Origin: Candidatus Heimdallarchaeota archaeon
GTDB lineage: Archaea; Asgardarchaeota; Wukongarchaeia; Wukongarchaeales; JBHIFL01
Length of the DNA: 64,000 nucleotides
Direction of reading: 5' to 3'
NCBI GenBank assembly: GCA_046761065.1
Contig: JBHIFL010000001.1
Coordinates: 64,001-128,000 of the forward strand
Shown: in pieces, positions 19,237-19,779 of the stretch
Numbering within the stretch: position 1 is the first letter of the stretch
Layout of the letters: each line of letters begins with the position of its first letter
Program-made: the position numbers and the translations under genes
Notes under the pieces: model-generated
Database searches by the model: none
The model's input: the letters and a program-made list of their open reading frames with translations, nothing else
What the model was told of the DNA's origin: nothing

Positions 19237-19415
19237 ACCTCGTTGAAATTCATTATTTCGTTCTTATCTTATATTTGGTGATCCCGTCCAGTTTTTTTAC
19301 TTTCTGTCATTAACCAACGAGCCTACCATTAAAGTCCCATGGTTATCCAAGAGTAATCATCCTTTCTACGAATCCGTTAATCCCTAAAAATATTTACAGT
19401 GATAATGATCTTAGC

Positions 19416-19428
19416 AAAAGATTAATAA
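19416..19428 (+). promoter_or_regulatory. Putative BRE/TATA promoter of the permuted 5S rRNA gene
   Basis: aaaag-attaataa lies about 25 nt upstream of the terminal stem starting at 19452. Confidence 0.55.
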
Positions 19429-19451
19429 TTGAATTTAATTCACCATTACTC

Positions 19452-19610
19452 ACTGCAGTGGAGCCGAAAGATAAGCTCGTTTCCGTTCTTGAGTGTACTA
19501 CGCTGCGAGAGCGCGTGGGAAATCAGGGAAGCTACCATTTCTCTGAGGTGGTGGCCAGAGGGGCGAGGAAACTCCCGGTCTCATTCCGAACCCGGAAACT
19601 CCATTGCAGT
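19452..19610 (+). rRNA. rrf: 5S rRNA gene, circularly permuted (3' half 19470-19537, linker 19538-19548, 5' half 19549-19597) inside a BHB-like processing stem
   Basis: 5' half TGGTGGCCAGAGGGGCGAGGAAACTCCCGGTCTCATTCCGAACCCGGAA lies downstream of 3' half GATAAGCTCGTTTCCGTTCTTGAGTGTACTACGCTGCGAGAGCGCGTGGGAAATCAGGGAAGCTACCA. Rejoined, helices I-V all form and conserved CCGAAC, GAAG.UAAG, GUAC and GGGAAA are present. Flanks 19452-19463 and 19599-19610 pair. Confidence 0.92.
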
Positions 19611-19779
19611 CTATTTCTTCAATTTATTTCCCAAAAAGGGATTAGATGTTTTGTTTTTAACTGAATTTCAGAGGCTCATTAATAATAGGATCCAAATCAA
19701 TGGTTGAATGGCAGAATGAGATAGTTGTCCTTATCCAAAACTCCTAGTTTTATAACTTCACTTCGTCCTGTAGTTTTAG

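What the first reader, a model, noticed from the sequence alone, without database searches (positions are those of the whole stretch)
19452..19610. BHB-like splicing motif whose predicted cuts regenerate the exact 5S junction
Seen: ACTGCAGTGGAG (19452-19463) pairs with CTCCATTGCAGT (19599-19610), 12 bp with one G-U. Inside are a 3-nt bulge AAA (19596-19598), a central helix CCGA/CCGG (19464-19467 with 19592-19595; 3 pairs plus an A-C mismatch) and opposite-strand AAG (19468-19470). Established: the archaeal tRNA splicing endonuclease cuts after the second nucleotide of each bulge and RtcB ligates. Applying that rule cuts at 19469/19470 and 19597/19598. Circularising the 128-nt inner piece gives CCGAACCCGGAA|GAUAAG, the canonical 5S sequence to the nucleotide. 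Inference: 5S maturation here depends on EndA/RtcB splicing through a circular intermediate, using a relaxed bulge-helix-loop-type substrate.
Basis: partly seen in the sequence, partly recalled or inferred. Interest (0 to 1): 0.92.

Follow-up and report, generated by a model that had tools for sequence, protein, structure and literature searches.

The report
Permuted 5S rRNA gene, circularised
This Asgard archaeon's only 5S ribosomal RNA gene has its two halves in swapped order and sits inside a tRNA-splicing signal that should cut it out and close it into a 128-base ring, a layout shared by most of its phylum and missed by standard annotation.

Summary
Window 19452-19610 holds a circularly permuted 5S rRNA gene: 3' half, helix I closed by a UCU cap, then 5' half. 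It lies inside a 12-bp stem with a bulge-helix-bulge-like motif. The splicing rule predicts a 128-nt piece (19470-19597) whose joined ends restore the canonical sequence between helix III and helix II.

It is the only 5S in the genome, which encodes two EndA paralogues and RtcB. The same layout scores strongly in 89 of 151 sampled genomes of the phylum, Asgardarchaeota by the titles of matching named records. The flanking stem covaries heavily. The break lies at four different places in different lineages, yet the predicted product is canonical in all but one family.

One 158-nt contig (128 + 30) of a probable metatranscriptome run carries the non-genomic "goes back 128" junction, compatible with the predicted joint. 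Helix I caps are mostly UNCG tetraloops, so I think the ring is the mature form, not an intermediate.

No paper in six library searches describes this. One paper reports that 5S could not be predicted in closed Heimdallarchaeum genomes. The nearest precedent is the permuted, circular SRP RNA of Thermoproteus. This scan noted the same layout earlier on other genomes.

The parts
19422..19429 (+). Possible archaeal TATA-like box (TTAATAAT), 23 nt before the outer stem
   Evidence: Sequence only. Relatives have TTTATATA-like boxes at similar distances. Inference, not tested.
19452..19463 (+). Outer stem, 5' strand (removed with the leader)
   Evidence: 12 bp with 19599-19610, one G-U. In the MFE fold. 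The 10 stem pairs counted all show changes on both sides in 25 relatives.
19464..19467 (+). Central 4-position helix H, 5' strand (CCGA), a decoy copy of the helix III strand
   Evidence: Pairs with 19592-19595: 3 standard pairs plus A-C. The first three pairs are kept in 25 of 25 relatives of this register; the fourth is unpaired in 12 of 25.
19468..19470 (+). 5' bulge AAG; predicted cut between 19469 and 19470
   Evidence: BHB rule, which is established knowledge. The joint seen is compatible with it.
19470..19541 (+). 3' half of 5S rRNA: GAUAAG, helix II 3' strand (19476-19483), helix V-IV arm (19486-19529), helix I 3' strand (19531-19541)
   Evidence: Rfam partial match. Circular fold. Consensus fold with compensatory pairs.
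19542..19544 (+). UCU loop capping helix I, where a normal 5S has its two ends
   Evidence: In relatives the cap is a YNCG tetraloop in 24 of 40 distinct sequences.
19545..19597 (+). 5' half of 5S rRNA: helix I 5' strand (19545-19555), helix II 5' strand (19560-19567), helix III and loop C (19574-19597)
   Evidence: Rfam match to model positions 28-51. Circular fold.
19592..19595 (+). Central helix H, 3' strand (CCGG); the same bases form helix III in the mature fold
19596..19598 (+). 3' bulge AAA; predicted cut between 19597 and 19598
   Evidence: BHB rule; joint.
19599..19610 (+). Outer stem, 3' strand (removed with the trailer)
19611..19630 (+). T-rich tract (CTATTTCTTCAATTTATTT), a possible archaeal terminator
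   Evidence: Sequence only; inference.

Best explanation
This is the organism's 5S rRNA gene, circularly permuted at the DNA level. It is transcribed on its own as 3' half, helix I cap, 5' half. Leader and trailer pair into a 12-bp stem that presents a relaxed BHB motif: outer helix, 3-nt bulge, 4-position helix, then a second 3-nt unpaired stretch with no closing inner helix.

The heteromeric (alpha-beta)2 splicing endonuclease EndA cuts after the second base of each bulge (19469|19470 and 19597|19598). RtcB joins the 2',3'-cyclic phosphate and 5'-OH ends of the 128-nt piece. The ligation restores the continuous ...CCGGAA-GAUAAG... strand between helix III and helix II. The product is a covalently closed 5S RNA whose helix I is capped by a loop, and it most likely enters the ribosome as a ring.

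Shown: gene order, motif, conservation and covariation, presence of the enzyme genes, and a circular junction in one probable RNA library. Inferred: which enzymes act, and that the ring is the mature form.
For: (1) Permuted order and full 5S fold. There are two Rfam pieces in swapped order. The 128-mer folded as a circle gives helix I, the II-III arm and the V-IV arm. The consensus fold of 23 genes has 46 pairs, 38 of them with compensatory changes.

(2) No other 5S is found in the genome. The CM finds one copy.

(3) Conservation. CM R1 scores at least 44.8 bits in 89 of 151 sampled genomes of the phylum, in 20 of 27 families. A further 22 score only 26-39 bits, in four families; three of these plus f10 held every RF00001 match over cut-off in the 61-genome sample, 16 of 61 genomes.

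(4) BHB covariation. Register 2: 87.7% paired against 62.8% shuffled, 0 of 500 shuffles as high. Register 1: 96.6% against 69.8%, 0 of 500. Own-genome outer stems average 9.4 bp against 1.25 bp for cross-genome pairings.

(5) The break differs by lineage: three registers one base apart, plus a fourth place about 17-19 nt away on the 5' side of loop C. The rule still gives a product of invariant length in 36 of 37 simple cases among 76 genome hits and 39 of 39 among 68 metagenome hits. The fourth place restores helix III and loop C in 4 of 4 genomes.

(6) The 12 canonical-order 5S genes of Asgard relatives that I examined have TATA boxes and T-runs but no consistent BHB.

(7) RNA-level junction. 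Run X20 is filed as METATRANSCRIPTOMIC. It has one 158-nt contig at depth 11.3 whose pieces lie on 19534-19595 and then 19468-19563, 'goes back 128', both = 2. DNA run X8 reads straight through both flanks.

(8) Enzymes. Two EndA paralogues are present, 32% identical, the second without the aligned His; one RtcB scores 533.6 bits. Passages of PMC5829648 state that Asgard archaea have the (alpha-beta)2 EndA with the L1 insert linked to broad specificity.

(9) Helix I caps are YNCG tetraloops in 24 of 40 distinct sequences.
Against: The central helix here has 3 standard pairs plus A-C. The MFE fold of the precursor forms a local hairpin instead of it. No inner helix h' exists, so this is not a strict hBHBh' motif, and cleavage by EndA is untested.

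The RNA evidence is one contig from one run. The tool marks that run's RNA status as a guess. The contig is 95-99% alike, so it comes from a close relative rather than provably this genome. Contigs cannot show abundance or exclude linear forms.

In family f14 (G015) the rule predicts one extra base at the junction.

In 28 of 76 genome hits and 14 of 68 metagenome hits, a conserved hairpin of about 30 nt with a second copy of the H strand makes the 5' cut ambiguous.

The genome is 91% complete, so a hidden canonical copy cannot be excluded for this genome alone.
Confidence: 0.8

Rival explanations
1. The ring is only an intermediate. It is re-opened at the helix I cap to give an ordinary linear 5S rRNA, as permuted tRNA genes are matured through a circular intermediate followed by end processing.
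For: Permuted tRNA genes work this way (passages of PMC4267664; listing and abstract of PMC3978253). [quoted passage not shown] The window's cap is a plain UCU loop, not a tetraloop.
Against: 24 of 40 distinct caps are YNCG tetraloops, some on extended helix I, which looks selected for a stable closed end rather than a processing site. No conserved cleavage motif is seen at the cap. The X20 contig is closed across both the cap and the junction.
Confidence: 0.1
2. The flanks are cut off but the ends are not joined. The mature 5S is a linear, permuted molecule with its ends at GGAA / GAUAAG, like the permuted mitochondrial 5S of brown algae.
For: Brown-algal mitochondrial 5S is permuted in the final product (passages of PMC4267664). 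An unligated product would also explain why the nucleotide count is conserved.
Against: The junction-spanning contig of 128 + 30 nt needs molecules that carry the ligated joint. Archaeal EndA products are normal RtcB substrates, which is established knowledge, and RtcB is present.
Confidence: 0.07
3. The locus is a dead or rearranged 5S remnant or an assembly artefact, and the real 5S lies in the unassembled 9% of the genome.
For: The genome is 91.49% complete with 8.2% contamination.
Against: The same layout, with compensatory changes, is present in 89 of 151 genomes. These include single-contig genomes that have no RF00001 match over cut-off. The locus is held linearly by DNA runs of 8 studies.
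Confidence: 0.02

Closest known systems
Permuted SRP RNA gene of Thermoproteus, matured into a circular SRP RNA by the tRNA splicing endonuclease (Plagens et al. 2015, eLife, PMC4731332; abstract and outline read)
   Same: A universal structured non-coding RNA gene is permuted in the genome. Its termini lie in a motif cut by the splicing endonuclease, the ends are ligated, and the circle is the functional form.
   Different: The RNA here is 5S rRNA, not SRP RNA. The layout is phylum-wide (89 of 151 genomes, 20 families) rather than limited to a few species. The break lies at four places in different lineages. Function of the ring in the ribosome is not shown here.
Circularly permuted tRNA genes (Cyanidioschyzon merolae; reviewed in PMC3978253, listing and abstract only; mentioned in passages of PMC4267664)
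   Same: Gene halves are in swapped order, there is a BHB at the junction, and a circular RNA is made by the splicing machinery.
   Different: There the circle is an intermediate that is re-opened at the acceptor ends. Here helix I is capped by stable loops and no re-opening signal is seen.
[quoted passage not shown]
   Same: A BHB in a processing stem, EndA and ligase, and circular rRNA, for 23S even in mature ribosomes.
   Different: Those genes are colinear, not permuted. That paper states that 16S and 23S 'but not 5S rRNAs' go through circularisation.
Permuted mitochondrial 5S rRNA of brown algae (Valach et al. 2014, PMC4267664, passages read)
   Same: A 5S rRNA whose helix I is replaced by a closed hairpin, with termini moved elsewhere.
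   Different: It is organellar. The termini lie at the alpha/gamma junction. There is no BHB and no ligation, and the product is linear and permuted.
Circularly permuted 23S rRNA of Pyrococcus furiosus (PMC7758197, abstract only)
   Same: An archaeal LSU rRNA that ends up permuted through a circularisation step.
   Different: There the gene is colinear and the RNA becomes permuted. Here the gene is permuted and processing restores continuity.

Membership tests
5S rRNA (Rfam RF00001) | Reaches the family's gathering score (38 bits) as a colinear sequence | tested here: not met
   There are 0 matches at gathering score. Two pieces score 24.2 and 19.4 bits in swapped order. The failure is explained by the permutation.
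5S rRNA (Rfam RF00001) | Three-way junction of helix I, the II-III arm and the V-IV arm, with the conserved loop C and GUAC/GGGAA motifs | tested here: met
   The circular fold of 19470-19597 gives exactly this. All helices have compensatory pairs in 23 genes. Loop C matches model positions 28-51.
5S rRNA (Rfam RF00001) | Serves as the cell's 5S: the only such gene, and expressed | tested here: inconclusive
   It is the only 5S-like locus in a 91%-complete genome. One probable RNA contig comes from a near-identical relative. Ribosome association is not testable here.
Archaeal BHB splicing substrates (hBHBh') | Two 3-nt bulges on opposite strands, each 3' of its strand of a 4-bp helix | tested here: met
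   AAG and AAA flank CCGA/CCGG. The same geometry is present in 37 of 76 genome hits and 39 of 68 metagenome hits as simple cases. In the window the fourth pair is A-C.
Archaeal BHB splicing substrates (hBHBh') | Flanking helices h and h' on both sides (strict motif) | tested here: not met
   The outer helix h is present at 12 bp. No inner helix h' closes the 5' bulge. This is a relaxed, hBH-type motif.
Archaeal BHB splicing substrates (hBHBh') | Cleaved by EndA, ends joined by RtcB | not testable with these tools
   The genes are present: two EndA paralogues and RtcB. The joint seen sits where the rule predicts, within a 2-letter ambiguity.
Permuted non-coding RNA genes matured into circles (Thermoproteus SRP RNA type) | Gene halves in swapped order, with the native ends joined by a loop | tested here: met
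Permuted non-coding RNA genes matured into circles (Thermoproteus SRP RNA type) | Circular RNA with the non-genomic junction detected | tested here: met
   One 158-nt contig (128 + 30), joint 'goes back 128', in a run filed as metatranscriptomic. This is a single contig from a single study, and the run's RNA status is a guess of the tool.
Permuted non-coding RNA genes matured into circles (Thermoproteus SRP RNA type) | The circle is the functional form in its ribonucleoprotein | not testable with these tools
   Only indirect: YNCG tetraloop caps in 24 of 40 distinct sequences.

The most novel reading that the evidence does not exclude
In most Asgard lineages, including records labelled Hodarchaeota and Heimdallarchaeota, the 5S rRNA built into the ribosome is a covalently closed ring. 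That would be the first circular 5S rRNA.

The gene permutation would be an old rare genomic change of the phylum, and once the product is a ring the break point can wander. Eukaryotes and a few Asgard families have colinear 5S genes. The character could therefore be mapped on the Asgard tree as an independent marker for where eukaryotes branch, or it would require a reversion on the eukaryotic stem.
Probability: 0.5. Interest if true: 0.92.

Novelty: new member of a known kind. Interest (0 to 1): 0.86.

Why it matters
5S rRNA is universal and is regarded as easy to find. A methods passage on two closed Heimdallarchaeum genomes nevertheless says 5S genes 'could not be predicted' (PMC8813620). 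This finding explains that gap: Rfam fails on the swapped order.

It supplies a working covariance model and four break-point classes for annotation. It extends BHB-dependent circularisation to the one rRNA that a 2026 paper still excludes (PMC12918454). It predicts a circular 5S in the ribosomes of the archaea closest to eukaryotes. It makes tRNA splicing enzymes essential for ribosome assembly there.

It also offers a discrete genomic character (permuted or colinear, and break position) for Asgard phylogeny. MAG quality standards that ask for a 5S gene would be affected too; that point is recalled from the MIMAG standard, not tested here.

Tried and rejected
- **Rfam at gathering score:** nothing in 64 kb.
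- **BLAST of the 186-nt stretch against 61 relatives:** only one other genome found, so too insensitive; replaced by a covariance model.
- **Sequencing runs:** no RNA holder is listed on record. X20 is RNA only by the tool's guess. X21 laid 0 contigs. X13 gave only two pieces of 31-36 nt.
- **Bacterial-type promoter and terminator scan:** 1 promoter-like site against 1.0 expected and 0 terminators, not informative for an archaeon.
- **Metagenome pattern scan, in the hope of wrap-around RNA contigs:** all 68 hits lie on contigs of at least 1 kb and none wraps round. Used only as a replicate of the BHB counts.
- **Unrestricted BHB finder:** its top hits were spurious for G004, G025a, G028, G048 and G056. 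G025a was resolved once the 3' strand was anchored to loop C, and G048 as the fourth break place. G028 and G056 are cut by contig ends.
- **False positives:** two of the 76 pattern hits are bacterial colinear 5S genes with a chance upstream match. L105 was read; L118 has the same flanks.
- **Earlier scan notes by place in this genome:** none.
- **Literature:** searches found no paper describing a permuted or circular archaeal 5S. Subscription journals are not in the library.
- **Not done:** I did not search collections with the joined junction sequence. It would have meant typing a joined sequence.
- **Not resolved:** the order or class name of this genome. It is the only member of its family among the genomes held, and its 5S is at most 71% identical to the relatives compared.

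Full report
**What is there**

ACTGCAGTGGAG (19452-19463) pairs with CTCCATTGCAGT (19599-19610) over 12 bp with one G-U. Inside the stem, CCGA (19464-19467) faces CCGG (19592-19595), giving three standard pairs and an A-C. AAG (19468-19470) and AAA (19596-19598) are left unpaired on opposite strands.

Each bulge lies 3' of its own strand of the central helix. That is the geometry of the archaeal bulge-helix-bulge (BHB) motif, as I derived from the tRNA anticodon-intron arrangement (established knowledge).

Between the bulges lies a complete 5S rRNA with its halves swapped:
- GAUAAG, then the helix II 3' strand (19476-19483);
- the helix V-IV arm (19486-19529);
- the helix I 3' strand (19531-19541), a UCU cap (19542-19544) and the helix I 5' strand (19545-19555);
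- the helix II 5' strand (19560-19567);
- helix III and loop C, ending ...CCGAACCCGGAA at 19597.

Rfam finds nothing at gathering score in the 64 kb. In E-value mode it finds two sub-threshold RF00001 pieces in swapped order, 24.2 and 19.4 bits against a cut-off of 38. Folded as a circle, the 128-mer gives the textbook three-way junction. The precursor folds at -69.2 kcal/mol, z = -4.36, with the 12-bp stem in the MFE. The weak central helix is not in the MFE.

**Context**

The window is G000:C1:64001-128000 of a 4.42-Mb assembly in 234 contigs, 91.49% complete with 8.2% contamination. The assembly carries an archaeal 16S gene. The two sub-threshold matches at this locus are the only 5S-like matches in the genome, and my model finds one copy.

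The gene stands alone on the + strand. It lies between a metallo-beta-lactamase-fold gene and a proteasome subunit gene, both on the - strand. A TTAATAAT box lies 23 nt upstream of the stem and a T-rich tract follows it; both are sequence-only inferences.

The genome encodes two EndA paralogues of 195 and 214 aa. Both carry PF02778 and PF01974, they are 32% identical, and the second lacks the His aligned to IDHSPF of the first. That this His is catalytic is recalled, not tested. There is also one RtcB at 533.6 bits. Passages of PMC5829648 say Asgard archaea have the (alpha-beta)2 EndA with the L1 insert that goes with broad, relaxed-motif specificity.

**Relatives**

RF00001 passes its cut-off in only 16 of 61 genomes of the phylum: families f6 6/6, f12 6/6, f16 3/5 and f10 1/1. 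Many others show two adjacent weak hits.

I read 31 such regions and the window's own.
- 23 of the 32 have a simple BHB around a permuted 5S.
- 4 have a BHB plus a hairpin of about 30 nt.
- 5 gave spurious top hits. Two of these were resolved later and two are cut by contig ends.

An alignment of 23 genes gives a consensus fold with 46 pairs, 38 of them with compensatory changes, including the outer stem.

A covariance model built from that alignment (R1) was run on 151 sampled genomes of the phylum.
- 111 genomes match at E <= 0.001.
- 89 genomes score at least 44.8 bits, in 20 of 27 families.
- 22 genomes score only 26.4-38.6 bits (f12 16, f16 3, f6 2, f26 1).

Where I compared coordinates (G006 and G020), the weak hit overlaps the colinear gene.

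The 12 colinear genes I examined have TATA-like boxes and T-runs. They have no consistent BHB: the best look-alikes have 4-7 bp outer stems at scattered positions, and 2 of the 12 have none.

**Which phylum**

I built a pattern that spans only the 3' half, the cap and the 5' half, so it is blind to the flanks. It was run over one genome for each of 185,579 species and found 76 stretches.
- 2 are bacterial colinear 5S genes with a chance upstream match.
- 2 sit in MAGs labelled Deferrimicrobium and Thermoproteota.
- The rest are labelled Heimdall-, Hod-, Odin-, Jord-, Baldr-, Njord-, Atabey-, Frey-, Hermod- (1), Hel- (1) or Thorarchaeota (1), Asgardarchaeum, Promethearchaeati/-ota, or just 'archaeon'.
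- None is labelled Lokiarchaeota.

Six of these named loci are contained letter for letter in loci from genomes that the tool places in the window's phylum. The phylum is therefore Asgardarchaeota.

**The BHB is under selection and the rule predicts the product**

Of the 76 stretches:
- 37 have a simple BHB;
- 28 have the hairpin insert;
- 6 are truncated;
- 4 are unclear, including the 2 bacterial ones;
- 1 has none.

The 37 simple cases fall into three registers one base apart. The cut falls at GGA|AG in 14, at GGAA|G in 20 (the window's register) and one base further on in 3. In 36 of 37 the joined product nevertheless has the YAAG motif at the same offset.

The replicate on 68 metagenome contigs gives 39 simple cases (18, 16 and 5 by register), all 39 with the same offset. 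It also gives 14 with the insert, 6 unclear, 5 truncated and 4 with none.

A fourth placement occurs in 4 genomes of family f9. There the break lies on the 5' side of loop C, with H = CUGG (CCGG in G048) facing CCGG and bulges AA|C and (A/U)C|A. The rule restores helix III and loop C exactly.

Covariation counts:

| Register | Sequences | Cells paired | Shuffled | Shuffles as high | Slid partner |
|---|---|---|---|---|---|
| 2 | 25 | 87.7% | 62.8% | 0 of 500 | at most 43.1% |
| 1 | 17 distinct | 96.6% | 69.8% | 0 of 500 | at most 46.5% |

In register 2 all 10 outer pairs show changes on both sides, and the fourth H pair is unpaired in 12 of 25. In register 1 the central helix is paired in 100% of cells.

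Own-genome outer stems average 9.4 bp (range 5-16). Cross-genome pairings average 1.25 bp, with 5 bp or more in 61 of 1524.

One exception: in family f14 (G015) the rule gives one extra base at the junction.

**RNA evidence**

The stretch is held by 20 runs of 8 studies, from vent, sediment, mangrove and soil metagenomes. One further run, X20, is filed as METATRANSCRIPTOMIC targeted capture and holds 0.56 of the words.

Laid on 19380-19680, X20 gives one 158-nt contig at depth 11.3.
- Its letters 1-62 lie on 19534-19595 and its letters 63-158 lie on 19468-19563.
- The joint 'goes back 128', from 19595 to 19468, with 2 letters that fit either side. 19597 to 19470, the predicted ligation, fits equally.
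- 158 = 128 + 30, which is what a ring yields with 31-letter words. The tool's index uses 31-letter words; that the contigs themselves were built with k = 31 is recalled, not tested.
- The contig closes both the cap and the junction.

DNA run X8 reads linearly from 19419 to 19620 through both flanks.

Caveats. The RNA status of X20 is the tool's guess. There is one contig from one study. It is 95-99% alike, so it comes from a near relative. Contigs say nothing about abundance.

**Ring or intermediate**

Of 40 distinct helix I caps, 24 are YNCG tetraloops (UUCG 13, UACG 4, UGCG 4, CUCG 3). The rest are mostly 3-nt loops or GNRA-like loops. Such caps look like permanent closures. I therefore favour the ring as the mature form, at about 0.7 given circularisation. 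Re-opening at the cap and non-ligation remain rivals.

**Known and new**

The mechanism has precedents:
- the permuted SRP RNA gene of Thermoproteus, made circular by the splicing endonuclease (PMC4731332, abstract);
- permuted tRNA genes;
- BHB-circularised 16S and 23S rRNA.

For 5S, six full-text searches found no description. A 2026 paper states that 16S and 23S 'but not 5S' are circularised (PMC12918454, passage). A methods passage on two closed Heimdallarchaeum genomes says 5S 'could not be predicted' (PMC8813620). My pattern finds two permuted copies in each of those two chromosomes.

Earlier notes of this scan describe the same layout on other genomes. One of them led me to the SRP RNA paper.

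I file this as a new member of a known kind, of high interest.

Noticed in passing
L053-L127 (28 of 76 loci, e.g. L110, L060, L071, L098); also 14 of 68 metagenome loci: In Heimdallarchaeum-like and Atabeyarchaeia genes, a conserved and covarying hairpin of about 22-30 nt follows the first H strand and bulge. A second copy of the H strand and an AAA/AGA bulge then follow, directly before GUUAAG. Two alternative 5' cuts are therefore possible. One gives a ring of about 153 nt that keeps the hairpin. The other gives a canonical ring of about 121 nt, through a three-way junction or a second, intron-like splice.
   Followed up: partly
L045, L132, L133, L137 (genomes G048, G131, G149, G064): A fourth break position lies on the 5' side of loop C instead of after helix III. 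Between the distal outer stem and a 3-4 bp proximal stem there is an extra capped hairpin. Two of the four also carry an insert of about 30 nt in the helix IV-V region, giving a 151-nt product.
   Followed up: partly
L131, L134, L135, L141 (genomes G009, G019, G029, G101): Inserts of about 28-30 nt lie inside loop C (after CCGAA), with an internal hairpin and short direct repeats at their edges. They may be BHB-type introns within the permuted 5S.
   Followed up: no
L139 (genome G015, family f14): The bulges are AGA and AUU. The cut rule predicts ...CUGGAU+AGUUAAG, one base longer than the canonical junction. This is the only lineage seen where the product length departs. In the second f14 genome (G053, L140) the outer stem could not be placed.
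   Followed up: no
G000:C1:440-2273 (outside the window): The 16S rRNA match spans 1834 nt for a 1478-position model, so the gene probably carries an insertion or intron. It lies about 81 kb from the 5S gene, so the rRNA genes are unlinked.
   Followed up: no
L022-L025, L034 (about 70-90 nt downstream of the 5S); L028, L036 (about 170 nt downstream): In Odinarchaeia-like and two other families, the permuted 5S is followed by a tRNA-like gene that appears to carry an intron (GGGGTCGTGGTCTAACCAGG...CTCCAGAAA...). Two splicing substrates therefore sit side by side.
   Followed up: no
L057, L116: Asgard-type permuted 5S genes sit on contigs of MAGs labelled Candidatus Deferrimicrobium (a bacterium) and Thermoproteota. 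These are probably mis-binned or mislabelled contigs.
   Followed up: no
L073/L106 and L082/L094 (two closed Heimdallarchaeum chromosomes); G110: Each closed chromosome has two permuted 5S copies with different flank architecture, one simple with a 5-bp outer stem and one with the hairpin insert. G110 shows four copies on short contigs.
   Followed up: no
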